A DNA stretch of 64,000 nt from a virus. Location of the stretch: positions 32,001-96,000 of the IMG/VR virus record IMGVR_UViG_3300046514_000687; one strand, given 5' to 3'. Position 1 is the first letter of the stretch. Every line of letters starts with the position of its first letter. Made by a program: the position numbers and the translations under genes. The notes under the pieces were generated by a model that was not told where the DNA came from, searched no databases, and saw nothing but the letters and a program-made list of their open reading frames with translations. Below are positions 20,516-61,977 of this stretch, in pieces.

Positions 20516-20552
20516 ATTATAAACTATCTCGTTACCCCGCGAGGGTACCTAC
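20516..20552 (-). promoter_or_regulatory. Leftward -10 (TATAAT) with an inverted GGTACC-N7-GGTAAC box over its spacer/-35 region
   Basis: Minus strand reads GTAGGTACC-CTCGCGG-GGTAAC-N9-TATAAT. Confidence 0.7.
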
Positions 20553-20622
20553 TGGCCATATCACGCGGGATGGGTTATAATCTAGCGTAGGTACCCACAT
20601 GGGGTACCGCAGCCGCAGGAGG
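20553..20622 (+). promoter_or_regulatory. Promoter cassette copy 1
   Basis: TGGCCA-17-TATAAT-8-GGTACC-CACATGG-GGTACC-GCAGC..AGGAGG. Confidence 0.9.
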
Positions 20623-20630
20623 AACGCCAG

Positions 20631-20801
20631 ATGAACCGCCCAACCCACCGGTGCGCCAGGTGCGGCACCGCGACTAACCACCCGACGTGGGTCGCCCACC
20701 GCCCCTACTGCGCTGCCCACTACCGCCTGGTCGCCGTCCCCTACTGCAACGGGTCCACTCCGTGCAGCCCGCAGTGCCCCACGCCGCGCAGGGAGGCCTA
20801 A
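20631..20801 (+). CDS. 56-aa Cys/His-rich protein
   Basis: ATG after the cassette RBS. CARC...CAAH. Not in the ORF track. Confidence 0.6.
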   Translation: MNRPTHRCARCGTATNHPTWVAHRPYCAAHYRLVAVPYCNGSTPCSPQCPTPRREA

Positions 20802-20803
20802 CC

Positions 20804-21115
20804 GTGGCAAGCAAGGCTCAGCACCGCCGCTGGCACCGCATGTGGGTCGAGGATGCCCGACAGCGCGAGGACGACGCTTTCGTGATCGTCGCCACGGGCC
20901 TGCGCGGGGAGGCCTACACCCCCGACTGGATGAGCGGGACCACCTTCGAGGACTACGAGGCCGTCTACGCCCTGCTGGCCAGCCCCTACGGGTACGAGGA
21001 CCGCAGCGAGTACAGCCGCATCGACGTTTACACGGGTTCTCGCGCCCGCGAGTACGAGATCACCACCTGGGTCGATCCCGTCTGGTCGTGGGTGCGCCCC
21101 GAGGAGGTGAGCTAG
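20804..21115 (+). CDS. Hypothetical protein
   Basis: GTG after GGAGG. Confidence 0.55.
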   Translation: MASKAQHRRWHRMWVEDARQREDDAFVIVATGLRGEAYTPDWMSGTTFEDYEAVYALLASPYGYEDRSEYSRIDVYTGSRAREYEITTWVDPVWSWVRPEEVS

Positions 21116-21388
21116 ATGGCCGCCAAGACTCCCGCCCGCGGGTACGTCACCGCCGCGCTGGCCCTCCGGGGCCTGCACCCCAACCGGCTGAGCCGGTCGG
21201 CCAAGACCGGCCGCTGGACCGCCCGCTGGAGCTACTACTACCGCCACGGGCGGGACTCCGAGAGCTTCGCCGAGCGGGTCGGCGAGGTCTTGGGCGCCAA
21301 CGTGGTTGACCACGGGGACCGCTGGGCCCCCTGGCCCCGCGACAGCTACTGGTGGGTCGAGTTCGAGTTCACGACGGTGGAGGACTAG
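21116..21388 (+). CDS. Hypothetical protein
   Basis: Coupled ORF. Confidence 0.6.
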   Translation: MAAKTPARGYVTAALALRGLHPNRLSRSAKTGRWTARWSYYYRHGRDSESFAERVGEVLGANVVDHGDRWAPWPRDSYWWVEFEFTTVED

Positions 21389-21730
21389 ATGGACCGCGAC
21401 TACGGGAGCCTGCAAAACCTGCTCGCGGGGAACGCCCGCAGCGCCGAGCCGGTCGTCGGGGAGGGGGCGACCATCATCTGGTGGAGCGACCGCTTCCCCG
21501 CCACGGTCGAGCGCGTCAGCCCGAGCGGCAAGACCGCCTGGCTGCGCGAGGACCGCAGCATCCGCCTGGACAGCCACGGGATGAGCGACAGCCAGTCCTA
21601 CCGCTTCGAGCCCGACCCCGCGGGCCGCGAGTCGGTTGCCAAGCGGAAGCGGGACGGGCGCTGGAAGACCACGGGCGGGCAGGTCGTCCAGTTCGGCAGC
21701 CGCAGCCGCTTCCTCGACTACAGCTTCTGA
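21389..21730 (+). CDS. Conserved-type phage hypothetical protein
   Basis: P.VG.GATI..WSDR.PATV...G.R..F.DYSF pattern. Confidence 0.65.
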   Translation: MDRDYGSLQNLLAGNARSAEPVVGEGATIIWWSDRFPATVERVSPSGKTAWLREDRSIRLDSHGMSDSQSYRFEPDPAGRESVAKRKRDGRWKTTGGQVVQFGSRSRFLDYSF

Positions 21731-21770
21731 GTTCGACTCGATTCGATTCTATTCGCGCCGGAGGATAACG

Positions 21771-21953
21771 ATGATCTACACCCAGGACGAGCTGGAGGAC
21801 GCCGTGGCCGAGCTGGCCGACGAGGACCCGTCGAGCTGGCCGGTCGCCTGCCGCGGGCGGTGCGCGCGGGCCGGCGGGTGCGACTGCGAGGTCGAGACCG
21901 ACGGCGAGTGCTCCCACTCCTGCCCCAGCATCCTGCTCGCCAGCGGTTTCTAG
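21771..21953 (+). CDS. Small Cys-rich protein (C.VE.DG.C.H.CPS)
   Basis: GGAGG RBS plus ATG. Confidence 0.6.
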   Translation: MIYTQDELEDAVAELADEDPSSWPVACRGRCARAGGCDCEVETDGECSHSCPSILLASGF

Positions 21954-21958
21954 CGGAG

Positions 21959-22029
21959 TGGTCAGGACCGCACGGCATGGGTTATAATCTAGTGTAGGTA
22001 CCTCACAGGGGTACCGCAGCACAAGGAGG
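21959..22029 (+). promoter_or_regulatory. Promoter cassette copy 2
   Basis: TGGTCA-18-TATAAT-8-GGTACC-TCACAGG-GGTACC-GCAGCAC-AAGGAGG. Confidence 0.9.
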
Positions 22030-22034
22030 AACCG

Positions 22035-22193
22035 ATGTCTCAGCAACTCCGATGCACCGCCGCCGTCACCCTGAAGATGCGCGGCTGGCGCCCCTGGGTC
22101 CTTCCCTGCGGCCGGCCGGTCCCCGCGGGCAATCGCTGCCCCGAGCACGCCGCACAGCAGCGGCTCACCGTCAAGCGCGCGCGGCGCGGCTAG
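22035..22193 (+). CDS. 52-aa protein MSQQLRC...CPEH
   Basis: ATG after the cassette RBS. Not in the ORF track. Confidence 0.6.
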   Translation: MSQQLRCTAAVTLKMRGWRPWVLPCGRPVPAGNRCPEHAAQQRLTVKRARRG

Positions 22194-22444
22194 GAGGAGC
22201 CGATGCGCCAGGAAACTCGCTGCCAGTGCGGGTGGGTCGGCTACCCTCGCCACCTCGACGCGCACATCCGCGTCGAGCACCACGTCGGCGACCCGCCCCC
22301 TAAGCGGCCCGGCTTTCGCGCTGCGCTCGACCACTGCAAGCGCAGCGCGGGCCACGGGCTCACCTTCAGGACCTGCGACGCGCCGGAGTGCGTCGCTTAC
22401 TGGGATGCCGCTGGCCGCTAGGCCACCTACGCGCGTGAGAGGAG

Positions 22445-23221
22445 ATGGACATGGCTGAAGAACGAGGGTGCGGCGAGCGGATCGCTGGCGGGGTGTACCT
22501 GGAGACCCGCCTGTCGCCCACGGGTCACCCACTAGAGTGTTTCTTCATGGACCCGCCGGGGCCGGTGAACACCGGCGGGCTGGGCATCACGCCCCGCGGC
22601 GTGAGCCTGATCACCGGGGAGGGCGGCGTCACCCACGTCTGGGACCTCGTCGGCGGCGACAGCTACCCCAACGTCGCGGACATCATCGAGGAGGGCCGGC
22701 GCCTGGGGTTCAGCCGCCGCATCGCCAGCACGGCCGACTTCAGCCGCCTCACGCGGTCGTCGCGGCTGATCCTGCTCCACCCCCGCGCGATCATCTTCAC
22801 CGATCACCAGCGGTACCTCGACGCGGAGCAGACCATCGACGGCCTGCTGCGCTCCTGCTGCCCGCAGGTCGTCGCGGGAGAGCACTGCGGGCGCCGCCTC
22901 GGCCCCGCCCACCCCACCGCGCCCGACCGCCTCTGCGGGCGGTACTGGTACCACGACATCACCGGCGGGGTGGAGCCTGACGCGGCCGACAGCGAGAGCG
23001 GCCGGGCCGTCGAGGGCGAGGTCCAGCGGACGGTCGGTAGGACTCGCTACTTCGCCTACCCCCGCCCGGAGGGGTGCGTGCCCGAGTACCGGGTGGGGAT
23101 CATCGGCGCCTTCCCAATCAGCGGCCTGGCCGTCGTTGCCGATCCCCTGGAGGGAAAGCACGAGGAGGGCTACGCCGCCGCGAAGCACAGCAGCCTGCCC
23201 GTCACCATCGAGCGCGACTAG
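22445..23221 (+). CDS. Hypothetical protein (RGCG.R..GGVY N-terminus)
   Basis: Long ORF with RBS. Confidence 0.65.
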   Translation: MDMAEERGCGERIAGGVYLETRLSPTGHPLECFFMDPPGPVNTGGLGITPRGVSLITGEGGVTHVWDLVGGDSYPNVADIIEEGRRLGFSRRIASTADFSRLTRSSRLILLHPRAIIFTDHQRYLDAEQTIDGLLRSCCPQVVAGEHCGRRLGPAHPTAPDRLCGRYWYHDITGGVEPDAADSESGRAVEGEVQRTVGRTRYFAYPRPEGCVPEYRVGIIGAFPISGLAVVADPLEGKHEEGYAAAKHSSLPVTIERD

Positions 23222-23249
23222 GCGCACCACCCGCGCAAGGAGGAGAACC

Positions 23250-24065
23250 GTGGACGAGGACACCGAGAACACCCAGCCCGCGCTCCTGCCGGCCGAGCGG
23301 CCGGAGGGCCGCCCCGCCACCGTGCCCTGCCACCAGATCGCCTTCAGCAGCCCGCTGGAGCCCAGCCCCAGCCTCCGCCGGTCGGTAGCGGCGGTGGGGA
23401 TCCTCCAGCCGCTGCTGATCCGCCGGAACCCCAACGGAGACAGCCTCTGCCCCTGGGTGGTCACCGACGGCAACCGACGCCTGCGCGCCGCGCTACTGGC
23501 CGACCTGACCAGCGTGCCGACGCTGATCATCGAGGGCGACGCCAACTGGGGCGCGGTCGCCCAGCTCAGCACGAACGCCACTCGCTCGCAGAACCTGGCG
23601 GCCGACCTCAAGAGCGTGGAGCAGCTCGCTACGGCGGGCTACACGGCGAAGGAGATCGGCCAGGCCGTCGGGCTCACCCGCGTTCAGGTAGAGCGCCTGC
23701 TGGGTATGCAGCGGTTGGACCCGGTACTGCGGCAAGGGCTCGACGACGGGAAGCTGACGCTGGGCACGGCGACCGAAGCGGCGAAGCTGCCGGTGGTCAG
23801 CCAGGAGGCGCTGGCCGAGAAGTTCACCAACGAGGGCAAGCTGACGGGCGGGGACATCGCGGAGCAGAAGACCGCCCGCGCCGCGCAGGCGCTCGCGATG
23901 ACCGACGTGGACGAGTTCCTGGTGGACGCGCCGACGCTGCCCGAGCACGAGGAGCGAGCGCGGTTCGTCAGCCTCGCTCGCCAGGCCCACGACTACGCGG
24001 TGCAGGACAACCGCGCCGCCGCCATCGCCACCCTGGAGACCCTGATTAGCGCCCTGGAGAGTTAG
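23250..24065 (+). CDS. ParB/Srx-like protein with HTH
   Basis: L.RSV...GILQPLLI, VTDGNRRLRAA, N..R.., EIGQAVGLTR.QV.R.L. Confidence 0.8.
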   Translation: MDEDTENTQPALLPAERPEGRPATVPCHQIAFSSPLEPSPSLRRSVAAVGILQPLLIRRNPNGDSLCPWVVTDGNRRLRAALLADLTSVPTLIIEGDANWGAVAQLSTNATRSQNLAADLKSVEQLATAGYTAKEIGQAVGLTRVQVERLLGMQRLDPVLRQGLDDGKLTLGTATEAAKLPVVSQEALAEKFTNEGKLTGGDIAEQKTARAAQALAMTDVDEFLVDAPTLPEHEERARFVSLARQAHDYAVQDNRAAAIATLETLISALES

Positions 24066-24086
24066 CGGAAGACCCACCGGGCCGAG

Positions 24087-24163
24087 TGGCCCTCACTGGC
24101 CCGGTGGGTTATAATCAAGTGTAGGTACCCCCGCAAGGTACCGCAGCACAAAGCGCGTGGAGG
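24087..24163 (+). promoter_or_regulatory. Promoter cassette copy 3, with -35 inside an upstream hairpin (24072-24109)
   Basis: TGGCCC-17-TATAAT-8-GGTACC-CCCGCAA-GGTACC-GCAGCAC. Confidence 0.9.
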
Positions 24164-24168
24164 AACAG

Positions 24169-25026
24169 ATGGACACCAAGCAGACCAAGGAGCCGTCGGT
24201 CCGGCAGGCTTGCGCAGAGGCCGCGCGCGGGCTCCTCGCAGCCCACGGGGAGCTGCGAGCGCTGGACGCCTGGAACGGCAGCCGCGTGCCGGCGGAGGCG
24301 AAGCGGTCGCTGAACGCGGTGATCGCAGACTGGGTGGCGCGCAACGAGCCGCCGCTGTCGGTCCACGCCCGCCTGGCGGCGCTGATCAACGCGGAGCACC
24401 CCGTGGTGGGGGAGGTCCGCTACCAGGTCCGCCTGGCGATGGTCCACCACCTGCGCGACGGCTGGGCAGGCACCGGCGCGGGTGCGCCGGTCGAGACGAT
24501 TCCCCCACTCGACGAGCCGACCCCCGACCTGCCGCCCAGCGGCCTCGACGTGGAGACGCTGGTACGGCAGGCGCTTGCCGAGACCGCGCCGGAGGCAGAG
24601 CCGGAAGCTGCACCGGAGCCGCCCGCGCCCGCTACCCCCGACGCCTGGGAGTGCGGCCTCTGCGGCCTGGTCATCGCTGACCAGGCCGCGCTGGTCACTC
24701 ACATCGCTGACTGCGAGGGGCCAATCGCGCCGACGGAGGAGGAACCCCTGCCCCCCGCCGGCCCCGCCCTGGTGTTTAGCTACGGCGGCACCGAGATCCA
24801 CCGCGAGCCGGCGCCGGAGGAGCCGGCCGGCTCAGCCTCGCCGGTGGACGACTCCGGCGGGCGCTACGAGTGCGCCCTGTGCGGCATGGTCACGGAGGGC
24901 CAGGCGGTGCTGGAGGCCCACCTCGCTCAGTGCACCGGCACGGGGAGCAGCGGGCGGTCGAGCCGCCGCGGCAGCGCGGTGCCGAAGCCGGCGAGCAAGA
25001 AGCGCAGTGCCAAGAGTCGCCGCTAG
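24169..25026 (+). CDS. Protein with two C2HC zinc fingers
   Basis: ECGLCG......ALVTHIADC and ECALCG......VLEAHLAQC. Confidence 0.6.
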   Translation: MDTKQTKEPSVRQACAEAARGLLAAHGELRALDAWNGSRVPAEAKRSLNAVIADWVARNEPPLSVHARLAALINAEHPVVGEVRYQVRLAMVHHLRDGWAGTGAGAPVETIPPLDEPTPDLPPSGLDVETLVRQALAETAPEAEPEAAPEPPAPATPDAWECGLCGLVIADQAALVTHIADCEGPIAPTEEEPLPPAGPALVFSYGGTEIHREPAPEEPAGSASPVDDSGGRYECALCGMVTEGQAVLEAHLAQCTGTGSSGRSSRRGSAVPKPASKKRSAKSRR

Positions 25027-25090
25027 GCGCAGTCGGCAGCACGGGCGCGCCCCGCCGGCGGGGCGCGCCCGGTCGCACAGGGAGGCACTC

Positions 25091-26983: not shown

Positions 26984-27441
26984 GCGCGGTCGCGCGTCCC
27001 CGTACCCCCGAGGGCCGGTACCGGACCGCTGCCGCGCCCGGCATGACCGGCCCGGAGCTGCGCCGATGGCGGCGGTGCTCCGGCCTGACGCAGCGCGAGC
27101 TGGCGTACCGCGTCGGCTACCAGCCGCCCAACGTCACGGCGATGGAGACCGGCGCGCGGCCGGTCATGCCGGCCGTCGAGGCGTACGTGCGCGCCCACCC
27201 GGCGCCGGAGCACACCGGCGACTACACACTCGACCCAGCAGGCCTGGAGCGCGCGCTACGGACCTTCGGCTCGTACGCCGTGTTCGCTCGCTGGTGGGGG
27301 GTGGCGGAACTCACGCTGCGGCGCTGGCGGTTCGGGGAGCAGTCGCTCCCCATGCCGCTCCGCGCGTGGCTGCGCGCGGGCGCTCCGCACCGCTGGGACG
27401 GCTGCACACACTGGCACCGGCGCCGCCGAGACCACTGGTAG
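26980..27441 (+). CDS. XRE-family double-HTH protein
   Basis: MTGPELRRWR...GLTQRELAYRVGY....V.AMETG and a second FARWWGV...TLRRW..G unit. Confidence 0.75.
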   Translation: MSAVARPRTPEGRYRTAAAPGMTGPELRRWRRCSGLTQRELAYRVGYQPPNVTAMETGARPVMPAVEAYVRAHPAPEHTGDYTLDPAGLERALRTFGSYAVFARWWGVAELTLRRWRFGEQSLPMPLRAWLRAGAPHRWDGCTHWHRRRRDHW

Positions 27442-27505
27442 ACCCCGCGCGGATAGGTTATAATCTAGCGTAGGTACCCCCGCAAGGTACCGCAGCAACA
27501 GGAGG
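27436..27505 (+). promoter_or_regulatory. Promoter cassette copy 4
   Basis: TGGTAG-17-TATAAT-8-GGTACC-CCCGCAA-GGTACC-GCAGCA..GGAGG. Confidence 0.9.
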
Positions 27506-27511
27506 CGCCAA

Positions 27512-33149: not shown

Positions 33150-33222
33150 TGGCCGTACCGCGCAGGATGGGTTATAATCTACTGTAGGTACCCCGCTAAG
33201 GTACCGCAGCCACAGGAGGAGG
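33150..33222 (+). promoter_or_regulatory. Promoter cassette copy 5
   Basis: TGGCCG-17-TATAAT-8-GGTACC-CCGCTAA-GGTACC-GCAGC..AGGAGG. Confidence 0.9.
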
Positions 33223-33229
33223 ATCAGAG

Positions 33230-34464: not shown

Positions 34465-34535
34465 TGGCTACTAACGGCAACATGGGTTATAATCTAGCGT
34501 AGGTACCCCCGTAAGGTACCGCAGCACCAGGGAGG
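34465..34535 (+). promoter_or_regulatory. Promoter cassette copy 6
   Basis: TGGCTA-17-TATAAT-8-GGTACC-CCCGTAA-GGTACC-GCAGCAC..GGAGG. Confidence 0.9.
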
Positions 34536-34541
34536 ACACCG

Positions 34542-35250: not shown

Positions 35251-35326
35251 TGCCCGTGTACCGGCCGGTAGCTGGACGCAACCTATGAAGTTGCGGGAGG
35301 AGGTTCGACCCCTCCACGGGCAACCG
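35251..35326 (+). tRNA. Non-canonical tRNA-like gene, anticodon ATG (His-type)
   Basis: Acceptor TGCCCGT/ACGGGCA, D arm CCGGC-CGGTA-GCTGG, anticodon arm CGCAAC-CTATGAA-GTTGCG, T arm GGAGG-TTCGACC-CCTCC, 3' A-CCG. Confidence 0.6.
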
Positions 35327-35352: not shown

Positions 35353-35502
35353 ATGACGATCAAGCTGTGGGCCTGCCAGGTCTGCCGGGGCATCACCGCC
35401 AACCCCGACCAGTGCCGCGACTGCCAGCGGCGCCTGTGTGCCGAGTGCTACGCCACTCACCCGCGCCCGTGTGACGGCGCGGCGGAAGGAGCGCCCCAGT
35501 GA
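35353..35502 (+). CDS. 49-aa Zn-finger microprotein
   Basis: CQVC, CRDC, CAEC..H. AGGAG RBS. Confidence 0.55.
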   Translation: MTIKLWACQVCRGITANPDQCRDCQRRLCAECYATHPRPCDGAAEGAPQ

Positions 35503-36098
35503 GCCTGGCCAAGATGGTCATGGACCTGCTCGGGGCGGCCGAGGCCGACGCCGCGCGGGAGGCAGCGCGGGATGCCCGCCTGGATCGCCTGCTGGCTGCC
35601 GTCGAGGACCAGGGCGCCATGCTGCTGGAGCTGGCCGAGACGGTACGCGCCCTGACGGCGCCGAGCCTAGAGCCGCTGCCGGCTAGCGTCGCTGCTGAGA
35701 TCGACGTGCCCGTTATACGCAAACCGGACGTACCGCTGGTCGCGGTTTCCGCTCCCCCGTCGGATGCAACGCCGGCCAAGCCGCAGCCCACCACGAGCGA
35801 CCCCGACGAGTACATGCTGCTGCGGCGGTACCTCGACGAGCGCGAGGCCACCTACCAGTCGCTCGCCGCGGACTACGGCCGGTCGCCCAACACCATCACC
35901 AAGCTGATCGAGCGCGCGGCCGACCGCCTGGGGGCGACCACCCGCAACGCGCTGCGGAAGGCCGCCCACGGGAAGAAGGGCTACAAGGCCATCGCTCGCC
36001 AGCGTGCCGCCCAGCAGCAGCTCGGGCGCACCCAGCCGCCGGGGACGACGGGTGCGCGGTTCAGCACGGTCCCCATCAGCCAGGCGCGAGGGCACTGA
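35499..36098 (+). CDS. HTH-containing protein
   Basis: TYQSLAADYGRSPNTITKLI. Confidence 0.55.
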   Translation: MSLAKMVMDLLGAAEADAAREAARDARLDRLLAAVEDQGAMLLELAETVRALTAPSLEPLPASVAAEIDVPVIRKPDVPLVAVSAPPSDATPAKPQPTTSDPDEYMLLRRYLDEREATYQSLAADYGRSPNTITKLIERAADRLGATTRNALRKAAHGKKGYKAIARQRAAQQQLGRTQPPGTTGARFSTVPISQARGH

Positions 36099-36331: not shown

Positions 36332-37036
36332 GTGAGCCCGCGTACCTACCCCCTGGTGGGGGACCGCTTGCCCGAGGGTACCGAGGGCATCGCCGAGATC
36401 CGCCGGGTGGTCTTCGACCGCCTGATCGCGCGCAACAGCAACCCCGCCCTGTGGGTTACGCCCGGTGCCTACACCAAGCTCGTCATCGACGGCGAGGTGA
36501 TGATGAGTGACACTCCGCACGAGGACGCCACCTGTGCCGAGCTGCTGCTCCACGCGCGGGGCAGCGTGCTGATCGCGGGCCTGGGCATCGGGATGGTCCT
36601 GCCGCCCGTGCTCGCCAAGCCGACCGTCACGCGCGTGCTGGTGCTGGAGAAGTACGCGGAGGTGATCGCCCTGGTAGCCGCCAGCGTGGCCCACCCGAAG
36701 CTGGAGATTCGCCAGGCCGACGTACTGCTCGACCCGGTGCCGACGGAGGAGTTCGACACCGTCTACCTGGACATATGGCCCACGCTCAGCGACCTGAACC
36801 TGCCCGAGATGGCCGCCCTCCGGCGGCGGTTCGCGCCCTGCTACCGCACTCGCAAGACCTGGGTCGGCTGCTGGGGCGAGATGCAGTGCCGCGAGTTCAA
36901 GGCGGTCAACGCGGCATTCGCCGCCGCCACGGTAGCCGGCGACGAAAAAGGCAAGCACGCGGCGGCCCAGCGCATGATGGCGCTCGGGTTCGACCTGGGC
37001 GGCGCGCTAGCCGACCGCGCGGCTGGCCGTCTCTAG
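36332..37036 (+). CDS. SAM-dependent methyltransferase fold (spermidine-synthase-like)
   Basis: VMMSDTP.E, G.VLIAGLGIG, V.VLEK..EVI, FDTVYLDIW. Confidence 0.75.
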   Translation: MSPRTYPLVGDRLPEGTEGIAEIRRVVFDRLIARNSNPALWVTPGAYTKLVIDGEVMMSDTPHEDATCAELLLHARGSVLIAGLGIGMVLPPVLAKPTVTRVLVLEKYAEVIALVAASVAHPKLEIRQADVLLDPVPTEEFDTVYLDIWPTLSDLNLPEMAALRRRFAPCYRTRKTWVGCWGEMQCREFKAVNAAFAAATVAGDEKGKHAAAQRMMALGFDLGGALADRAAGRL

Positions 37037-37093
37037 CCCGATGGGTTATAATCTAGCGTAGGTACCCGCAGCGGGTACCGCAGCACACGGAGG
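37024..37093 (+). promoter_or_regulatory. Promoter cassette copy 7
   Basis: TGGCCG-17-TATAAT-8-GGTACC-CGCAGCG-GGTACC-GCAGCAC.CGGAGG. Confidence 0.9.
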
Positions 37094-37098
37094 CACCG

Positions 37099-37920
37099 AT
37101 GGACACCCCCGCCCGCGAGCACCCCGTCTGGAGCGACCTCTTACGCGGCGCCGTCGAAGACCCCGGCCGCGCATCGGCAGCTTATTCCAACTTCTGGCCT
37201 TACAGCTTCCGCAACCAACTGCTCGCGATGGAGCAGTGCCTGCACCGCGCCCTGCCCATCGGCCCCATCGCCAGCTACCGCGGCTGGCTGGCCCACGGGC
37301 GCCAGGTCCGCAAGGGCGAGAAGGCGCTGAGCCTGTGGATGCCGATTCACCGCCGCGGCGAGCCCAAGCCGTCCGACGAGGCGGCCGAGACCGCCCGCGT
37401 CCGCTTCGTGTTCCTGAACCGCTGGTTCGTCTACGCCCAGACCGACCGCGCCGACGGGGCTACCGAGGACTGGGCGCCGCTGCCCGTGCCGGGCTGGGAC
37501 CGTGGACAGGCCCTGTCTGCCCTCCAGGTGCGCGAGGTCGCCTTCGACTCGGTAAACGGGAACGTCCAGGGCTGGAGCGTGCCCGCCGACCGGACGCTGG
37601 CGCTGAACCCCGCCGGTACCCACCCCGTCCAGACCACCTTCCACGAGCTAGGCCACATCGTCCTGGACCACGTGCGTGGGCACGACGACGCGGGCACGGC
37701 AGAGGTAGAGGCGGAGTGCGTGGCGCTGCTGGCGACGGCGACGCTGACCCCGACGGCTACCGAGGCGCTGGCCGCCTCCCGGCACTACGTGCAGTGGTAT
37801 ATCGCCAAAACCCCGGACGGCCTTACCGAAGAGATGAGCCGTCGCATTATGAGTGCGGCTAACCAGGTACTTGTAGCCGGCAGAGTGCAGGAGAATGCAG
37901 GCGATGACCAAGCCGCGTGA
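37099..37920 (+). CDS. ArdC-like ssDNA-binding/antirestriction protein with zincin motif
   Basis: YSF.NQLL, W...GRQVRKGEKA, F...QT, HELGH, E.EAE.VA. Confidence 0.8.
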   Translation: MDTPAREHPVWSDLLRGAVEDPGRASAAYSNFWPYSFRNQLLAMEQCLHRALPIGPIASYRGWLAHGRQVRKGEKALSLWMPIHRRGEPKPSDEAAETARVRFVFLNRWFVYAQTDRADGATEDWAPLPVPGWDRGQALSALQVREVAFDSVNGNVQGWSVPADRTLALNPAGTHPVQTTFHELGHIVLDHVRGHDDAGTAEVEAECVALLATATLTPTATEALAASRHYVQWYIAKTPDGLTEEMSRRIMSAANQVLVAGRVQENAGDDQAA

Positions 37921-43254: not shown

Positions 43255-43322
43255 TGGCATGGCCTGTCCCAGCGGGTTATAATAGGCTAAGGTACCCCCT
43301 GATGGTACCGCTTGCGTGGAGG
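43255..43322 (+). promoter_or_regulatory. Promoter cassette copy 8 (variant)
   Basis: TGGCAT-17-TATAAT-7-GGTACC-CCCTGAT-GGTACC-GC..GGAGG. Confidence 0.85.
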
Positions 43323-43327
43323 ACTAG

Positions 43328-48253: not shown

Positions 48254-48312
48254 TGGACAGCGCGGCCTAGATGGGTTATAGTAGGTACCTCACGTGGGTA
48301 CCTACCGAGGAG
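48254..48312 (+). promoter_or_regulatory. Promoter cassette copy 9 (variant, box abuts the -10)
   Basis: TGGACA-17-TATAGT-A-GGTACC-TCACGTG-GGTACC-TAC..GAGGAG. Confidence 0.8.
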
Positions 48313-48318
48313 AACCAC

Positions 48319-55185: not shown

Positions 55186-56263
55186 TAGATCAGGCATCGA
55201 GTGGACGCGCGGGAATGACGGCAGCCCCGGCGCCACGTGGACCCCGATTCGCCGGCGGTGGAATCCGGATCGTCCCGCCGGGCACGCTTGCCTGCGTATT
55301 AGTCCTGGATGTCAGGAGTGTTACGCCGGTAAGCTCCAACCCCGGTACTATGGCGGGCTCAACTATCCGGTCGCCACTACGGAGTCACTCCAGGCGATGC
55401 GCGACCTCGTGACTGACGGCACGCTCTACCTCGATGAGGCGACGCTCACTAAGCCGCTCCACTGGCGCCGCCCCCGTCGCATCTTCGTCTGCTCGATGAC
55501 CGACCTGTACGGCGAGTGGGTGCCGGCCGCCTGGATCGACCGCATCTGGGCGGTGATGGCCCACTGCCCGCAGCACACCTTCCAGGTGCTCACCAAGCGG
55601 CCGAACCGCCTGCGCCTGTGGATGGGCGACGCGCGGGAGTGCGTCCGGGCTACTGCCAAAGCCGACCCGCGTTTCTGGGCCTGGCCGCTGCCGAACGTCT
55701 GGCTGGGCGTCTCCATCGAGTCCGATGCCTTCGCCTGGCGCGCGAAGGTCCTGGCCGAGATCCCTGCGGTGATCCGCTTCGTCAGTGCCGAGCCGCTGCT
55801 CGGGCCGCTGTTCAAGCTGAGCTACCGCTGGGTGCGCTGCCACGACTGCGACTGGGCGGGGCCGGAGCACGAGATCTACGACTCCCGCCTGGCCTGGACT
55901 CCGCACTGCCCCGGCTGCCGCAGCGGCCAAGAACTACGGGCCGAGCCGACCCCGCGCATCCACTGGGTCATCGCCGGCGGCGAGTCCGGCGGCCCGCCCG
56001 CGCGCAGCCTGGTCGAGCCCTGCCACTGCACGCTGGCCGCTGGGCGCGGCACGCTCGTGCGCGGTCTCTGCGACCGCTGCCAGGGCACAGGGATGGCCCC
56101 GAAGGGCGCTGCTTACGCCTGGGTGCAGAGTATCCAGCAGCAAGCCCAGCGCCAGGGCGCCAGCTTTTTCCTGAAAAGTTGGGGGGGCAGAACCTTTAAG
56201 TCCGGCGGGCGCCTCCTGGCTGGCCGCACCTGGGATGCCTACCCGGACGCGGTTCCGGTGTGA
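55178..56263 (+). CDS. DUF5131 (phage Gp37/Gp68) family protein
   Basis: IEWT, SPGC..CYA, RIFVCSMTDL, HTFQVLTKRP, PNVWLGVS.E, RFVSAEPLLGP, WVIAGGESG, FFLK.WG. Confidence 0.9.
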   Translation: MSDRSGIEWTRGNDGSPGATWTPIRRRWNPDRPAGHACLRISPGCQECYAGKLQPRYYGGLNYPVATTESLQAMRDLVTDGTLYLDEATLTKPLHWRRPRRIFVCSMTDLYGEWVPAAWIDRIWAVMAHCPQHTFQVLTKRPNRLRLWMGDARECVRATAKADPRFWAWPLPNVWLGVSIESDAFAWRAKVLAEIPAVIRFVSAEPLLGPLFKLSYRWVRCHDCDWAGPEHEIYDSRLAWTPHCPGCRSGQELRAEPTPRIHWVIAGGESGGPPARSLVEPCHCTLAAGRGTLVRGLCDRCQGTGMAPKGAAYAWVQSIQQQAQRQGASFFLKSWGGRTFKSGGRLLAGRTWDAYPDAVPV

Positions 56264-56805
56264 GGCGGTTCTTCGTGATCGTCCTGGCCTGGCTGCTGTT
56301 CGTAGTTCTGATCGTCGGGTGGTGGGTGGCCTTCCTGCTCTGGCGCGCACATGGAGGGTGATGATGTGACTGAGGCTCCCCAGGGCTCGGTCCAGGCCGA
56401 GGGCCAGTACGGTACGGCGGCCGGCGACGAGACCGCCGAGGCGCCCGCGGACTACGCCGCCATCCTAGACGGTATCGCGCTGCGGACCTGGCGGCGCCTG
56501 CTGCTCTTCTTCTTGCGGATGCGCGTGGCTCAGCTCACCCTGGCCGGGAGGGCCGATGACGAGGCTGCGGACTAAGCCGACCGGGCACTGGGAGTGGCGG
56601 CGCCTGCTGGAGTGGCCGAACGGGCAGCTCTGCGAGAACTTCCCGACGACCGAGCCGGCCGCGCGCGACGACTGCGACCTGGCCTTCGAGCTGGCTTACA
56701 TCCACGAGCAGCGGGTCACTATCCGCCTCCAGCGCCGCTGGGTAGCCGACTGGGAGACCGTCGACGAGGTCGTCGCCTCCCCGCTGCCCGAAGAAGGAGC
56801 GCCCG

Positions 56806-57327: not shown

Positions 57328-58143
57328 TGCCCCCCTCCGAAGAAGCCGCCACTCTGATCCGTGCGCTGGCCGAGCAGCTTGCCTGGTTCTGTCGCAAGCC
57401 CAAGGATGGCGACGCCAGCCTGCACCTGGGTATTGGCTGGTACTCGCTCTGCGACTTCGTAGCCGATCCGCGCCTGCCGCGCCCGTGCAGCCCGCGCTGC
57501 CAAGCCGTGCGAACGGTGCTCCAGCTCGCGGCCGACCGCCTGGGCTGCTCCGTCACTGCCTTTACCCCGCCCGCGCCCCGCCGGCGGGGCGCGCGGTCCT
57601 CCGGGGAGGAGGAGTTGCCGTGGACGAGCTGAAGCGCTACTACCTGCACGCTCAGCGCCCGCGCCACCCCTGGTGGAAAGCCGCCCGCGCCGCCGCGGCG
57701 ACGATCCCGGACTTCGCTCGCGGCCTGGTGGAGTGGCGCCGCATCGACGACGCGCCGATCATTAACGCCGACCTCCGCGAGACTATGGCCTTCTGGGACT
57801 GGGCGCGGGCGCTGCCGGGCTGGACCGACAACAGCGGCGGGCCGGTGGGCTACCTGGACCGCCAGGACCCCAACTTTATCCAGGGCACCAGCGCCTTCAA
57901 CCGCGACAGTTTTGACGCCGCCTACCTCAAGGCGATGGATTCCCTACTATCCCCCAAGGCTTTGTGGCAGATGGGCGTCGCCCTGCTCGTCTCGCCGGTC
58001 CCCGATGGCGGCTGGCTCGCGGAGATCGACAACGCGGACCCGGCGCTGCCGACCTCCTGCGCTGCTACTCCAGACGGTGCCGTCCAGGCGCTGATGCTTG
58101 CCATCGGCGCGGATGTCCGCCAGCATGGCCGCCAGTTCGACAC

Positions 58144-58213
58144 TGGCCCCGAGGCGCCAAAGGGGTTATAATCTAGCGTAGGTACCCCCGAGAGGTACCG
58201 CAGGAAACGGAGG
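58144..58213 (+). promoter_or_regulatory. Promoter cassette copy 10
   Basis: TGGCCC-17-TATAAT-8-GGTACC-CCCGAGA-GGTACC-GCAG..GGAGG. Confidence 0.9.
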
Positions 58214-58421
58214 CTCTGATGGACGAGCACCCTGCCCCGCCCCTCCCCTGCGACGCACGGATTCGCGTCGCCAAGTGGTTCCGGCTCCACCGCGCCAGCA
58301 AGGTCGCGCGAGTCACCTGCGGGCAGCCCGGCCGCCGCCAGGTCTACGCGGACGGCGACGGCGCCTTCGACGTGGTGCGGTGCCCCGCGCACGCCCTGTT
58401 CATCCCCGACGAGGTGCCGTC

Positions 58422-58883
58422 GTGAGCGAGACCGTCGCCTTCACCGGCGCCCGCAAGGTCCCGCTCGCCGGCGTCGACCTGATCACCGACGTAGTGGGGC
58501 GCCTCCCCGCTACCGCCCGCGTGCTACACGGCGGCTGCCTGGGCGTGGACGCCCTGGTCGGCCGCGCCGCCTGGGAGCGCGGCCTGGGAGTCCACACCGT
58601 CCTGCCCGGCCTGGACCAGTACACCCACCCCGACTGGGCGCGCTACTGCCACAGCCACGAGCGCCTGGCCGGCGGCTCCGAGTCCTACCGCGCCCGCAAC
58701 ACGCGCCTGGTTGCCCTGGCTGACCGCCTGATCGCCTTCCCCGCCTGGCCCGAGCGGGACGGACGGTCTGTCCGCAGCGGGACGTGGATGTGCGTTCGGA
58801 TCGCGCGGGCGGCCGGCAAGCCCGTCACCGTCTATCTGCTGTGTGACGTGGCGGCCGACTCGCCCCTGCCGGAGGTGGGCTGA
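58422..58883 (+). CDS. SLOG/DprA-like Rossmann-fold protein
   Basis: VAFTGAR, HGGC.GVD, Y.ARN..LV...D.LIAFP, SGTW..VR.A...GKPV. Confidence 0.75.
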   Translation: MSETVAFTGARKVPLAGVDLITDVVGRLPATARVLHGGCLGVDALVGRAAWERGLGVHTVLPGLDQYTHPDWARYCHSHERLAGGSESYRARNTRLVALADRLIAFPAWPERDGRSVRSGTWMCVRIARAAGKPVTVYLLCDVAADSPLPEVG

Positions 58884-59195
58884 TGGCGCGCTGCTCGCGC
58901 TGCAAGCTGCCGCTAGTGCCGGGCTTCCCGCTCTGCCCGCACTGCGGCAAGAAGGTGAGTCGCTGATGGACACTCCGCGTACCGATGTCGCGGTTGGCGA
59001 CGTGATCCAGCTCGACCCCGCGGCGCACGAGGCGTTCGGCGGCTGTCTGCTGATCGTGGAGGAGGTGCGGACCTGGGGCCTGGTTGCCGCGGCGCTGATT
59101 CCGCAGGGCGGCGGCCCCGCCCACGCGCCCTACCGCGTCGCCTGGGGCGCCTTCGCGCGGATCGGCCCCGCTGCCTGGCCGCTGAAGGGGGACTG

Positions 59196-60260
59196 ATGCC
59201 GCTCGTGATCGAGCAGGTCCAGCGCGGCATGGTACCGCCGCTAGACGCCATGCTGGAGCAGGCCCAGATCGTCCGCATCCAGAACGTCGCCCAGTGGTAC
59301 TGGGGCCACGACCAGGACTACTGGGAGCTGCACCGGCACTTCCCCAACGTGGCGCCGCCGTGGCCCGTCGCCTGGTACGAGTACCACATGCCCCGCGTGG
59401 TCCAGCTCCTCACTGGCCCGGCGCGCGCTACCCCGCTCGGCGTCGGGGTACTGATCAACGCCATCGAGGACCCTGCGGCCTGGTGGGACGCCGAGCACTG
59501 GCTGCCCTCCGCCCTCAAGACGCTGATGATGATGACCGCTTACCAGCGCACCGACGACGCGCACCAGGCCATCGACATCGCCGAGCGCGTCTTCCAGGAC
59601 GACACGGCCACGCTCCGCGCCTGCCCGTCGGACTGGACGCGGGACATGCGCGCCGCGCTCACCGCCCTGCCGGCCTACTGGCGGCGGGTCCAGGCGCGGT
59701 GGGTGCTCCAGCTGATCACCTACGTGGAAGACCCCGGCTTTCGCGTGCCGATGCCCTACTACGTGGACTTTATCCCGGTGCGCGCGGACGGCACGATCCC
59801 CTACGAGGAGCAGCCGGAAGGCCCGGCCGAGCCGCCGCGGCTGCTGCGCCTGCTGGTCTGCGCAACGCCCGCCAGCGTGGACCTATTCAACCGCCCCGCG
59901 CCCTACTTCCACCCCGCGCTGCTAGCTAACTGCTTCGCCCACTGCAAGAATGTCGCGGTTACGGACGGCGCCCCGCCGCCGAAGCTAGCGCGCCGCAACG
60001 CGCAGAAGGGCCGGCCGTTCCTGACCTGGAAGGTGCTGGACATCGACCCGATGATGCGCGTGCTGCGCCGCGAGGGCGGCATGGGCGAGCACGGCGAGCG
60101 CGCCGCTGCGGCTATGCACATCGTCCGCGGCCACTTCAACACCTACGACGAGAAGCCGCTGTTCGGCAAGTGGCGCGGCACCTGGTTCGTGCCGATGCAC
60201 ACTCGCGGCAGCCCGCGGGCGGGCCTGGCCGCCAAGGACTACGCGGTGAAGGGGAAGTGA
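59196..60260 (+). CDS. Hypothetical phage protein
   Basis: 354-aa ORF with C-terminal H.VRGHF...W...H.RG motif. Confidence 0.6.
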   Translation: MPLVIEQVQRGMVPPLDAMLEQAQIVRIQNVAQWYWGHDQDYWELHRHFPNVAPPWPVAWYEYHMPRVVQLLTGPARATPLGVGVLINAIEDPAAWWDAEHWLPSALKTLMMMTAYQRTDDAHQAIDIAERVFQDDTATLRACPSDWTRDMRAALTALPAYWRRVQARWVLQLITYVEDPGFRVPMPYYVDFIPVRADGTIPYEEQPEGPAEPPRLLRLLVCATPASVDLFNRPAPYFHPALLANCFAHCKNVAVTDGAPPPKLARRNAQKGRPFLTWKVLDIDPMMRVLRREGGMGEHGERAAAAMHIVRGHFNTYDEKPLFGKWRGTWFVPMHTRGSPRAGLAAKDYAVKGK

Positions 60261-60261
60261 G

Positions 60262-60936
60262 ATGACCCGCAAGCGCACCGCCATCGACGACTACATCGAC
60301 CGGCTGGACGTGAACGTGGTCCAGGAGGAGATCGAGGCTACGCGCAAGCACCTGCGGGCGCTGGCGACGGAGCTGCCGCGCCTGTCCCGCCTGCGCGCGG
60401 TGATCGCCTTCGTGGAGCGAGTCAAGGACGAAAACACGACCCTGTACGGCGAGCGCGCGCAGCTCCGCGGCGAGCTGGCCGACGCCCAGGAGCGCCTGGC
60501 TGAGGTGCGCCGCCGCTACGAGGTCCAGCGCATTGCCCTGGAGGACTACCGCGACCGGCTGGAGCGCGCGACGGTCGAGCTGGCAGCGGCGGCGGCACCA
60601 GACTCTCCGCTGGCGCCCACCGTGGTGCTGGTGAGCCTCCTGCGCGCCGCCCTGGACGACCTCGCGGTGGCTGCCAGCCACGTGCCGCCCGACAACAACC
60701 TCGCCGTCGCTCTGCACGTCGCGCGCTCCACGCTGGAGGCGACTCCGCTGCCCGAGGGCGCCCCGCATACCTTCGTGGAGGTGGCCGCGGCGCTCCAGCC
60801 ACACATCTGCGAGCCGTGCCGCGCCGGTCACCACGCGGACTGCACCGGCAGCGCCGAGCAGGTCTGCCCGTGCTCCGTGCGCCCCTCCGAGTGGGGGGAG
60901 CCGGACGGCCCGCACCACTCCCCGCTCCACCCGTAA
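60262..60936 (+). CDS. Coiled-coil protein with C-terminal Cys cluster
   Basis: Heptad pattern. C..C...H..C......CPC. Confidence 0.55.
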   Translation: MTRKRTAIDDYIDRLDVNVVQEEIEATRKHLRALATELPRLSRLRAVIAFVERVKDENTTLYGERAQLRGELADAQERLAEVRRRYEVQRIALEDYRDRLERATVELAAAAAPDSPLAPTVVLVSLLRAALDDLAVAASHVPPDNNLAVALHVARSTLEATPLPEGAPHTFVEVAAALQPHICEPCRAGHHADCTGSAEQVCPCSVRPSEWGEPDGPHHSPLHP

Positions 60937-61300
60937 ACTGCGCTGAGAGGAGGCTAGTCATGAGCTACGACGACGAGATCGCCGCGGCCGCGGCGGCTGA
61001 GGCTGCCGCGCTAGAGGCCGCCCGGGCGGACTGGCCCCAGCTCTGGACGAATACCCCGGATGCCTATGACGGCTTCGGCACCGAGACCATCGAGACCACC
61101 GACCTCTATGTGGACGGCCACGCTGGCGGCGCCTACGACTTCCCGTTCCGCCGCATCCGCTGCGACCCCGCTCACGTCCAGTGGCAGTGCGAGCGTAACA
61201 ACAGCGGGGCCTACTGGACGCTGGACACCCCGCTGTGGGCTACCTGGCTGATCGAGGGCCGCGTCGCGCCGCCGCCGGAGCGCGCTCCCGGATGACTCGC

Positions 61301-61370
61301 TGGCATTAGCTGTGCAGATGGGTTATAATCTACTGTAGGTACCCCGCTAAGGTACCGCAGCACACGGAGG
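61301..61370 (+). promoter_or_regulatory. Promoter cassette copy 11
   Basis: TGGCAT-17-TATAAT-8-GGTACC-CCGCTAA-GGTACC-GCAGCAC.CGGAGG. Confidence 0.9.
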
Positions 61371-61376
61371 CGCCAA

Positions 61377-61802
61377 GTGACCAAGTCGAAGGGCAAGCGC
61401 TGGCGGGTCATCCCCGGCACGCGGACGCCCGCTCCCGCGCCGCTCGCGCCGAAGGCCCCGAAGGCTCCGAAGTTCGCCGCCACCCCCGCTCCGCTGGTCG
61501 ACCCCGACACCGACCGCGCCATCCGCGCCGCCGAGCAGGAGGCCGACCGCGCCTTCGTTGCCACCATGAAGGGCATCGCCCCGCCGGAGTCGTTCGCCGC
61601 CAGCCTGAACTCCCTCTTCGAGGTCGTCGGCCCCGTGATCGCCGCCGGACGCCGCGAGCGCGCCATCGACCTTACGCGCCAGGTCGCCACCATCCGCGAG
61701 CAGGCCCGCGAGTTCGAGCGCGAGGGCCGCTTCAACCACGCCGACAAGGCGCTCGCCCGCGCCGCCAAGCTGGAGCGAGACGTCACCGCCGGGAGGTTCT
61801 AG
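61377..61802 (+). CDS. Hypothetical protein
   Basis: GTG after the cassette RBS. Confidence 0.6.
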   Translation: MTKSKGKRWRVIPGTRTPAPAPLAPKAPKAPKFAATPAPLVDPDTDRAIRAAEQEADRAFVATMKGIAPPESFAASLNSLFEVVGPVIAAGRRERAIDLTRQVATIREQAREFEREGRFNHADKALARAAKLERDVTAGRF

Positions 61803-61907
61803 CCCGTGTGGACCAGCACGCCGCGCCCCGCGCCCTGCCGCTGGTGCCCCTGCAAGGGGCCGACCGCGCCGCTCCCGTTCTGCTACTGCGCCTGCCACCG
61901 CTAGGAG

Positions 61908-61977
61908 TGGCCCCGCCCCGCAGGATGGGCTATAATCTAGCGTAGGTACCTCGTAAGGGTACCGCAGCACACGGAGG
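61908..61977 (+). promoter_or_regulatory. Promoter cassette copy 12
   Basis: TGGCCC-17-TATAAT-8-GGTACC-TCGTAAG-GGTACC-GCAGCAC.CGGAGG. Confidence 0.9.

What the first reader, a model, noticed from the sequence alone, without database searches (positions are those of the whole stretch)
20516..61977. Dispersed 12-copy promoter/operator cassette (TGG -35, TATAAT, GGTACC-N7-GGTACC, RBS) heading clusters of small genes
Seen: 12 same-strand copies with the -10 at 20576, 21983, 24110, 27459, 33173, 34488, 37047, 43278, 48277 (TATAGT), 58167, 61324 and 61931. Every copy has TGGnnn 17 bp upstream (18 bp in one), i.e. an invariant TGG where sigma70 -35 boxes have TTG. Every copy has two GGTACC hexamers separated by exactly 7 variable bases at the expected transcription start, then usually GCAGCA and a GGAGG RBS. 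Inference: invariant half-sites with a fixed-length but variable spacer suggest a protein-bound operator running one regulon across ~41 kb. The box can also fold as a 5' mRNA hairpin (perfect in copy 7). The repeats could additionally act as recombination points for shuffling gene cassettes, analogous to T4-type promoter stem-loop elements and mycobacteriophage stoperator/start-associated sequences. I do not recognise this particular motif.
Basis: partly seen in the sequence, partly recalled or inferred. Interest (0 to 1): 0.85.

Follow-up and report, generated by a model that had tools for sequence, protein, structure and literature searches.

The report
Phage early promoter-operator cassette family
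An uncultured high-GC phage starts twelve blocks of early genes from near-identical strong promoters, each carrying the same two-part palindromic site at the transcription start, and that site is most likely the landing pad of a phage repressor encoded next to the first copy.

Summary
Twelve perfect GGTACC-N7-GGTACC boxes lie on one strand against 0.09 expected by chance. Each sits in an intergenic gap, downstream of a -10 hexamer (8 bp in ten copies, 7 and 1 bp in two) and 36-46 nt before a start codon. None lies elsewhere in the 111-kb virus contig. All 12 TATAAT hexamers in the genome, on both strands, belong to this system.

Both hexamers are invariant in all 12 copies. The N7 spacer is close to random (40% pairwise identity; chance is 29%). 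This argues for sequence-specific recognition, not merely a foldable RNA stem.

A 13th, degenerate copy covers the -35 zone of a leftward promoter. That promoter drives a 146-aa protein whose model is a single-chain tandem ribbon-helix-helix (RHH). Its best fold matches are F-plasmid TraY and single-chain Arc.

Best reading: a sigma-A/sigma-70-type early promoter family with a built-in operator at about +2 to +20, repressed by this RHH protein. Binding, transcription starts and repression are all inferred.

A 5' mRNA-stabilising hairpin remains a live rival or a second function. Mosaic sharing of blocks between copies shows that they have recombined.

This is a new variant of a known kind, of moderate interest. 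No relative's DNA could be retrieved.

The parts
20553..20630 (+). Cassette 1: -35 TGGCCA, -10 at 20576, box 20590-20608, RBS, ATG at 20631 (56-aa Cys-rich ORF)
21959..22034 (+). Cassette 2: -35 TGGTCA (18-bp spacing), -10 at 21983, box 21997-22015. Its operon includes a ParB-like gene.
24087..24168 (+). Cassette 3: -10 at 24110, box 24124-24142
27436..27511 (+). Cassette 4: -10 at 27459, box 27473-27491. Same spacer as cassette 3.
33150..33229 (+). Cassette 5: -10 at 33173, box 33187-33205. Shares a 45-bp identical run with cassette 11.
34465..34541 (+). Cassette 6: -10 at 34488, box 34502-34520
37024..37098 (+). Cassette 7: -10 at 37047, box 37061-37079 (the spacer extends the palindrome). 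First gene is an ArdC-N + M78 peptidase protein.
43255..43327 (+). Cassette 8: -10 at 43278, 7-nt gap, box 43291-43309. First gene is a Rad52-family recombinase.
48254..48318 (+). Cassette 9: -35 TGGACA, -10 TATAGT at 48277, box 48284-48302. A 7-bp deletion places the box 1 nt after the -10.
58144..58218 (+). Cassette 10: -10 at 58167, box 58181-58199
61301..61376 (+). Cassette 11: -10 at 61324, box 61338-61356. Mosaic copy: its 5' part matches cassette 5 and its 3' part matches cassette 4.
61908..61983 (+). Cassette 12: -10 at 61931, box 61945-61963
20531..20549 (.). 13th, degenerate box (GTTACC-N7-GGTACC). It lies just upstream of the -35 of cassette 1 and covers about -40 to -22 of the leftward promoter.
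20516..20521 (-). Leftward TATAAT, the only TATAAT in the 111 kb outside the cassettes. It is the presumed -10 of the regulator gene.
20038..20478 (-). P0001, 146 aa. Predicted single-chain tandem ribbon-helix-helix protein and the candidate operator-binding regulator.

Best explanation
The twelve copies are the phage's early promoters. Each is a host sigma-70/sigma-A-type promoter with a -35 of the form TGGCCn, 17-bp spacing, a G at -14 and a perfect TATAAT. Fused to each is a 19-bp operator made of two individually palindromic hexamers whose centres are 13 bp apart, at about +2 to +20. A short leader and a strong RBS follow. A phage protein reads the two hexamers on double-stranded DNA and blocks RNA polymerase at all twelve promoters together, which would serve as early-gene shut-off or immunity. 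The most likely binder is P0001, a single-chain tandem RHH protein encoded divergently beside cassette 1. In this model one pseudo-dimeric molecule sits on each hexamer. A weaker 13th box over the -35 zone of the P0001 promoter would give autoregulation. What is shown: the repeat family, its anatomy, its conservation pattern, its positions and the predicted fold of P0001. What is inferred: the transcription start sites, protein binding, the identity of the binder and the sign of regulation. My odds: promoter family about 0.9; a DNA operator as the selected function of the boxes about 0.6-0.65; P0001 as the binder about 0.4 overall.
For: 1. Statistics and position. There are 12 exact copies against 0.09 expected, all intergenic and on the same strand, each with an RBS and start codon after it.
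2. Every TATAAT in the 111 kb, on both strands, belongs to a cassette or to the leftward promoter. The TGGGTTATAAT core never occurs without boxes.
3. The promoter parts fit the sigma-A consensus quoted in PMC3917453: TTGNCA and GNTANANT. A natural C. glutamicum promoter there has TGGTCA at -35.
4. No sigma-70 region 2 domain was found in the contig, so host polymerase is the simplest reader. The search for a T7-type polymerase is uninformative because its control failed.
5. Pairwise identity is 1.00 for both hexamers and 0.40 for N7, against 0.29 by chance. It is 0.40 for the -35/-10 spacer. There is no G-U or compensatory variant in any of the 24 hexamers.
6. Spacer ends extend the palindrome in 5 of 12 copies, which is about the chance rate.
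7. In copy 9 both hexamers are intact although a 7-bp deletion puts the first one at about -5 to +1. Most of the 5' arm would then not be transcribed.
8. The 13th box lies at a leftward promoter upstream of its -10.
9. P0001 models as beta-alpha-alpha, linker, beta-alpha-alpha (pLDDT 78). Its best fold matches are F TraY (Z 7.3, 100 residues aligned), single-chain Arc (Z 6.8), DndE and AvtR. About 15 single RHH domains also align on repeat 2 at rmsd 1.3-2.8. The Foldseek top 10 are all relaxosome chains E, F and G. PMC12117103 describes TraY as a single-chain RHH that binds as a train of three molecules.
10. The only RHH_1 signal in the whole genome lies inside P0001.
11. The strand residues R-W-W and R-T-W are invariant even in a homologue with 37% identity.
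12. Inference from established knowledge of RHH proteins: each two-fold symmetric RHH unit reads a short palindromic subsite. This explains why each hexamer is itself a palindrome, which has a 1 in 64 chance for a random hexamer.
Against: There are no binding data and no transcription start data. No relative's DNA was available, so co-variation of protein and box could not be tested. The fold-match Z scores (up to 7.3) are below the tool's own caution line of 8. Pfam RHH_1 is below its cut-off (12.5 against 20.5 bits). A 13-bp centre-to-centre distance puts two RHH units about 85 degrees apart around the helix. Known cooperative RHH arrays use 7-11 bp. Other DNA-binding candidates exist: a ParB-like protein at 23250-24065, and weak HTH hits at 35499-36098 and 17495-17827. 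A host factor is also possible. The box sits exactly where a 5'-terminal RNA hairpin would be most protective, so an RNA function could explain its position equally well. The deletion in copy 9 may be too recent to be informative.
Confidence: 0.55

Rival explanations
1. The selected function is in the RNA. Transcripts start 0-3 nt before the first hexamer, so every early mRNA begins with a 6-9-bp stem-loop. This stem-loop protects the mRNA from 5'-end-dependent decay (RNase E, RNase J, pyrophosphohydrolase) or tunes translation. This could also be a second function alongside the operator.
For: The hairpin is the predicted fold in all 12 isolated elements (-8.5 to -14.0 kcal/mol) and in 11 of 12 full leaders. 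With a -10-to-box gap of 7-8 nt in 11 copies, the stem would sit at the very 5' end. From established work on the ompA and ermC leaders, that is the geometry needed for protection. The variable loop fits a purely structural element.
Against: A structural stem should tolerate G-U and compensatory changes. None is seen in 24 hexamers, while the loop is near random. Nothing in this model requires each arm to be self-complementary. Loop length is fixed at exactly 7. In copy 9 the 5' arm lies largely upstream of the expected start. The 13th box lies at the leftward promoter, upstream of its -10. There is no Rfam match.
Confidence: 0.25
2. The cassettes matter mainly as recombination linkers, in the manner of T4-type promoter-early stem-loop cassettes. 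On this view roughly 70-bp identical repeats let accessory gene blocks be deleted, inserted or exchanged between co-infecting relatives.
For: The copies are mosaic. Copies 5 and 11 share a 45-bp identical run. Copies 4 and 11 share 23 of the 26 bases after the box, through the RBS and the first two codons. Copies 3 and 4 have the same spacer. All four combinations of the two blocks exist. The genes behind the copies are unrelated to each other and are mostly small ORFans. The phage encodes a Rad52-family recombinase. PeSL exchange and mini-circles are documented in PMC2839356.
Against: Recombination is an expected by-product of any dispersed repeat and does not explain base-by-base invariance next to a free spacer. 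Gene-content differences between relatives could not be examined. PeSL anatomy differs: there the stem-loop is a terminator, not an element at the transcription start.
Confidence: 0.08
3. The box is an RNA or DNA site for a positive factor. Examples would be a nut/put-like antitermination signal, or a phage activator or appropriator that redirects polymerase to these promoters.
For: Operons reach 9.9 kb, and GC-rich palindromes that could act as terminators lie inside some of them. The box is promoter-proximal, as nut and put sites are.
Against: The loop is not conserved, whereas boxB is read through its loop. A single 6-bp stem is far simpler than put RNA. No boxA-like partner was identified. 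Sites at +2 to +20 are atypical for activators. The promoter already has a perfect -10 and a usable -35.
Confidence: 0.07

Closest known systems
Cluster A mycobacteriophage stoperators (L5 gp71 type; PMC9283540, PMC6550527)
   Same: Dozens of copies of one short repressor site are spread through intergenic gaps in one orientation, giving genome-wide control by a single phage protein.
   Different: Stoperators are 13-14-bp asymmetric sites read by a monomeric two-domain HTH repressor. Most are not attached to a promoter and act by stopping elongation. Here the site is a symmetric pair of palindromic hexamers, always fused to the same promoter at the start site. The candidate binder is an RHH protein, and no integrase was found.
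Streptomyces phage phiC31 early promoter family with conserved inverted repeats bound by the c repressor (recalled from memory, Ingham/Wilson/Smith 1990s; not retrieved here)
   Same: A family of near-identical early promoters in a high-GC phage, with repeated inverted-repeat operators in intergenic regions.
   Different: The sequences differ, and phiC31 early promoters are not sigma-70-like. Its repressor is not an RHH protein. phiC31 is temperate and has an integrase.
P22 Arc/Mnt and other RHH repressors (MetJ, CopG, omega), and single-chain tandem RHH proteins (F TraY, archaeal-virus AvtR)
   Same: Short palindromic subsites are each read by one two-fold RHH unit. Units bind side by side. 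Autoregulation is common. Arc shuts off a phage promoter during lytic growth. [quoted passage not shown]
   Different: There is no detectable sequence homology to any of them. Subsite spacing here is 13 bp, against 7-11 bp in those systems. There are twelve-plus-one operators instead of one or two.
T4-type PeSL mobile regulatory cassettes (PMC2839356)
   Same: Dispersed, conserved early-promoter cassettes roughly 60-100 bp long, containing a stem-loop, in regions rich in small ORFans. The copies recombine.
   Different: The PeSL stem-loop is a terminator within the cassette. Here the palindrome lies downstream of the -10, at the transcript start, and no terminator is part of the repeat.
RK2 KorB regulon (recalled from memory)
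   Same: One protein and 12 palindromic operators coordinate many operons of a mobile replicon. A ParB-family gene is also present here.
   Different: KorB sites are single 13-bp palindromes at varied distances from promoters. The ParB-like gene here lies inside the regulon, and nothing links it to the boxes.

Membership tests
Sigma-70/sigma-A-type promoter | A -10 hexamer of the form TANNNT and a -35 hexamer 16-18 bp upstream | tested here: met
   TATAAT in 11 copies and TATAGT in 1. TGGNNN lies 17 bp upstream in 11 copies and 18 bp in 1. G at -14 is present in all 12 copies. This fits the GNTANANT and TTGNCA consensus in PMC3917453.
Sigma-70/sigma-A-type promoter | Transcription actually starts 6-8 nt after the -10 | not testable with these tools
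   No RNA data exist for this uncultured phage.
Ribbon-helix-helix (RHH) DNA-binding proteins (P0001) | Beta-strand, helix, helix unit whose strands pair into a two-stranded ribbon | tested here: met
   The AF2 model has E9-15, H17-37, H41-57, linker, E82-88, H90-103, H107-121. VIA matches are TraY Z 7.3, single-chain Arc Z 6.8 and AvtR Z 4.7, plus many single RHH domains. These Z values are below the tool's caution line of 8, so support is moderate.
Ribbon-helix-helix (RHH) DNA-binding proteins (P0001) | Sequence match to Pfam RHH_1 above the curated cut-off | tested here: inconclusive
   There is a single hit in the whole genome, inside P0001, at E 0.022 and 12.5 bits against a 20.5-bit cut-off. 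hmmscan of the protein gave nothing at E 0.01.
Ribbon-helix-helix (RHH) DNA-binding proteins (P0001) | Binds the repeated boxes | not testable with these tools
   No protein-DNA prediction or assay was available.
T4-type PeSL cassette | A terminator stem-loop and an AT-rich stretch associated with a sigma-70 early promoter | tested here: not met
   The palindrome lies 1-8 nt downstream of the -10. There is no conserved upstream hairpin or AT-rich tract.
Mycobacteriophage stoperator | Asymmetric 13-14-bp site, mostly promoter-independent | tested here: not met
   The site is two-fold symmetric, and every copy is fused to the same promoter core.
Lambda-type nut (boxB) or HK022 put RNA | Conserved loop or multi-stem RNA read by a factor or by polymerase | tested here: not met
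   The loop has 40% pairwise identity, close to chance. There is a single short stem and no Rfam hit.

The most novel reading that the evidence does not exclude
One 19-bp element serves three roles. On DNA it is the operator of a previously undescribed, nearly orphan family of single-chain tandem RHH regulators that switch an entire 42-kb early region on and off. On RNA the same bases form the 5'-terminal protective hairpin of every early mRNA. As a dispersed repeat it is the crossover point by which accessory gene blocks are exchanged.
Probability: 0.15. Interest if true: 0.65.

Novelty: new variant of a known kind. Interest (0 to 1): 0.45.

Why it matters
The cassettes give a ready-made map of the early transcription units of an uncultured 111-kb phage. 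These units carry anti-restriction, recombination and replication-loading genes and many ORFans. The finding also yields a compact strong promoter plus operator, and a candidate cognate repressor from a protein family with only about five known members. If the pairing holds, it would be a clean single-input regulon. It would also extend the known RHH binding geometry to two palindromic hexamers 13 bp apart. It is not a new principle: phage-wide repressor regulons and repeated early promoters are well known.

Tried and rejected
Relatives:
- Megablast of 8 kb against 50,697 phage records found nothing.
- tblastn of P0001 against the phage records found nothing.
- The exact cassette pattern gave 0 other hits in IMG/VR.
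- The same pattern gave 8 single hits in unrelated taxa among the GTDB species genomes, which I read as chance.
- The ParB-like protein, P0006 and the P0001 alignment found no locus in viral contigs.
- The genome scan with the P0001 alignment found none.
- The metagenome scan gave only a 1,243-bp fragment lacking the promoter side and lacking boxes.
- Capsid relatives (57% identity or less) carry no boxes.
The contigs of the homologues P0003, P0004 and P0005, one of about 111 kb, could therefore not be read. This was the main missing test.

Complex prediction: two copies of P0001 scored 0.24 against a mark of 0.42. The tool gave no verdict, and I do not use this either way.

Other searches:
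- Pfam and PHROGs on P0001 and its neighbours gave no hits.
- A profile search of the PDB by sequence gave nothing meaningful.
- No T7-type RNA polymerase was found, but the control for that search rang nowhere, so it is uninformative.
- A methylation idea (GGTACC is the KpnI site) was considered, but no N6/N4 or C5 methyltransferase was found in the contig.
- Non-cassette GGTACC sites number 22 (47 in all), against roughly 37 that I estimate from base composition, so they are neither enriched nor clearly avoided.
- Duplicated gene cassettes were rejected: there are no paralogues among window proteins.
- Canonical terminators bounding each unit were rejected: the scan found no more than chance.
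- Earlier-findings look-ups by sequence and by relatives returned nothing.
Full report
**Context**

The window is bases 32001-96000 of a 111,030-bp IMG/VR virus contig with about 70% G+C and a CheckV completeness of 83%. No cultured phage is close.

Upstream on the + strand lie virion and lysis genes: an HK97-type capsid protein, a lysozyme-like protein, an alpha/beta hydrolase and a holin. A short leftward operon follows at 18365-20478. From 20.6 kb onward the genes again run rightward.

The host is unknown. The capsid's nearest cultured relatives are Burkholderia phages (47% identity). A DUF5131 protein is nearest to Gordonia and Mycobacterium phage proteins. The promoter features described below look actinobacterial.

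One search finds 12 exact GGTACC-N7-GGTACC boxes, all on the + strand, against 0.09 expected. It also finds a 13th copy with one mismatch. None occurs in the other 47 kb of the contig.

Alignment A1 and anchored alignments give the anatomy of each cassette:
- TGG of a -35-like hexamer, usually TGGCC;
- 17 bp of variable sequence (18 bp in copy 2);
- a conserved extended -10 (TGGGT followed by TATAAT);
- 8 nt, mostly CTAGCGTA;
- the box;
- GCAG(CA), a GGAGG-type RBS and a start codon 36-46 nt after the box begins.

Every copy lies in an intergenic gap and heads a run of + strand genes.

The hexamer TATAAT occurs only 12 times in the whole contig on both strands. Eleven are in cassettes. The twelfth is the leftward promoter next to cassette 1. 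The twelfth cassette itself uses TATAGT. The extended -10 core never occurs without boxes.

**What kind of promoter**

The parts match the sigma-A consensus reported for Corynebacterium glutamicum, TTGNCA and GNTANANT. The wild-type gdh promoter there carries TGGTCA at -35, the same hexamer as copy 2 (PMC3917453). The invariant TGG is therefore a normal, slightly sub-optimal -35 and not a sign of an exotic polymerase.

The contig encodes no sigma-70 region 2 domain. The search for a T7-type polymerase found nothing, but its control failed, so it carries no weight.

The genes served are typical early functions:
- an ArdC-N plus M78 peptidase protein;
- a Rad52-family recombinase;
- a DnaC/IstB-like ATPase;
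- a ParB-like protein;
- a glycosyltransferase;
- ASCH and DUF5131 proteins;
- many small ORFans.

They are not paralogues of one another. The repeat is therefore a regulatory module and not a duplicated gene cassette.

**What the boxes are for**

The key result is the conservation pattern. Both hexamers are 100% identical in all 12 copies. The 7-nt spacer has 40% pairwise identity, against 29% by chance. The -35/-10 spacer has 40%.

The copies have thus diverged freely wherever they could, and the hexamers are held base by base. A stem kept only for pairing would be expected to show G-U or compensatory variants, and none exists. Spacer ends extend the palindrome in 5 of 12 copies, which is about the chance rate.

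Each hexamer is itself a palindrome, which has a 1 in 64 chance for a random hexamer. Neither an RNA stem nor a classical inverted repeat for an HTH dimer requires this.

Two copies break the hairpin geometry:
- Copy 9 lost 7 bp between the -10 and the box. Its first hexamer therefore sits at about -5 to +1, yet both hexamers remain perfect.
- The 13th, degenerate copy (20531-20549) lies at a leftward promoter, upstream of its -10.

These points favour recognition of double-stranded DNA by a protein.

**The switch region and the candidate regulator**

The 13th copy is a decayed cassette in the same orientation as the others. Its TTATAA core, the following CTA and both boxes still align with them. 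Its -10 now reads TATAAA on the + strand. Because TTATAA is a palindrome, the same bases read as a perfect TATAAT on the - strand.

That leftward -10 lies 38 nt before the ATG of P0001 (20478 to 20038). The box then covers about -40 to -22 of the leftward promoter, where no -35-like hexamer is present. The same box ends 3 bp before the -35 of cassette 1.

P0001 has no Pfam or PHROG hit. It has only four close homologues or fragments in 5.8 billion proteins, and one further distant homologue (P0006) among 1.8 billion cluster representatives.

With five sequences, AlphaFold2 gives strand, helix, helix, linker helix, strand, helix, helix (pLDDT 78, pTM 0.74).

An exhaustive structural search ranks these matches:
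- F-plasmid TraY first (Z 7.3, 100 residues aligned, rmsd 3.6);
- single-chain Arc (Z 6.8);
- DndE;
- MJ0366;
- AvtR;
- about fifteen single RHH domains on repeat 2 (rmsd 1.3-2.8), including AmrZ, PutA, NikR, SvtR, Arc and MazE-, VapB- and TacA-type antitoxins.

Foldseek's top ten are all relaxosome chains E, F and G. The relaxosome paper states that F TraY holds the whole RHH dimer fold in one chain and binds DNA as a train of three molecules (PMC12117103).

The Z values are below the tool's caution line of 8. I therefore treat the fold as moderately well supported. It is helped by three further points:
- the only RHH_1 signal in the genome lies inside P0001;
- the helix-B motif S-R-S-x-x-I-R-x-A-L is present;
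- R-W-W and R-T-W on the two strands are invariant.

RHH units are two-fold symmetric and read short palindromic subsites side by side; this is established for MetJ, Arc, CopG and omega. Two palindromic hexamers are therefore what a pair of P0001 molecules would be expected to bind.

That P0001 binds the boxes is an inference, as is repression. Repression is inferred from the position at +2 to +20, the geometry of lacO1. No integrase was found. The role may therefore be early shut-off rather than lysogenic immunity, but 17% of the genome is missing.

**Rivals**

A 5'-terminal mRNA hairpin is predicted for all isolated elements (-8.5 to -14.0 kcal/mol). It would sit at the ideal place for protection from 5'-end-dependent decay. 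It may be a second function, and I give it 0.25 as the main one.

Recombination between copies has clearly happened. Copies 5 and 11 share a 45-bp identical run. Copies 4 and 11 share 23 of the 26 bases after the box, through the RBS and the first two codons. Copies 3 and 4 share a spacer. All four block combinations occur. This resembles PeSL behaviour (PMC2839356), but it is an expected by-product of any repeat and does not explain the selection pattern.

An antitermination or activator role is unlikely, because the loop is not conserved and the promoter is already strong.

**Limits**

All other routes to relatives failed. Neither co-variation nor cassette shuffling could therefore be tested. 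The self-association prediction gave no verdict.

**Verdict**

This is a real and unusually tidy promoter-operator regulon with a plausible, nearly orphan tandem-RHH regulator. It is a new variant of a known kind of phage control system, of moderate interest.

Noticed in passing
window 5081, 25049, 28871, 43827, 49350, 57575; also contig 12185, 14652, 109208, 109769: A second repeat, a 16-bp GC-only perfect palindrome (GCCCCGCCGGCGGGGC), occurs 10 times with up to 2 mismatches. Several copies sit just after stop codons, for example after the major capsid gene and inside cassette operons. They may be tail-less terminators or RNA-stabilising hairpins.
   Followed up: partly
whole contig: TATAAT occurs only 12 times on both strands of the 111 kb, and every occurrence belongs to the cassette system. 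Virion and replication genes therefore have no consensus -10 and must use another promoter class or read-through.
   Followed up: partly
window 35251-35325 +: ARAGORN calls a tRNA-His with the unusual anticodon ATG, inside the cassette 6 operon.
   Followed up: no
window 20631-20801, 22035-22193, 58219-58425: The first genes of cassettes 1, 2 and 10 encode 52-68-aa Cys-rich proteins. Each has a C-x-x-C-like pair and a later C-(P/A)-x-H, a pattern that looks like small zinc-binding proteins. They are not detectably homologous by BLAST.
   Followed up: no
window 18733-19386 -: A LAGLIDADG homing endonuclease gene (Pfam E 1e-14) lies in the leftward operon, downstream of the RHH gene.
   Followed up: no
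window 19380-19673 -: An open frame is interrupted by one in-frame TGA. Read through, it gives only a weak DUF402 hit at E 0.003.
   Followed up: partly
window 37099-37920 +: The first gene of cassette 7 combines an ArdC N-terminal domain with an IrrE/M78 peptidase domain. This suggests an anti-restriction or anti-defence protein expressed immediately.
   Followed up: no
contig 13398-14618 and window 55397-56263: Host signals conflict. The capsid protein is nearest to Burkholderia phages (47%), whereas DUF5131 is nearest to Gordonia and Mycobacterium phages (35-37%).
   Followed up: partly
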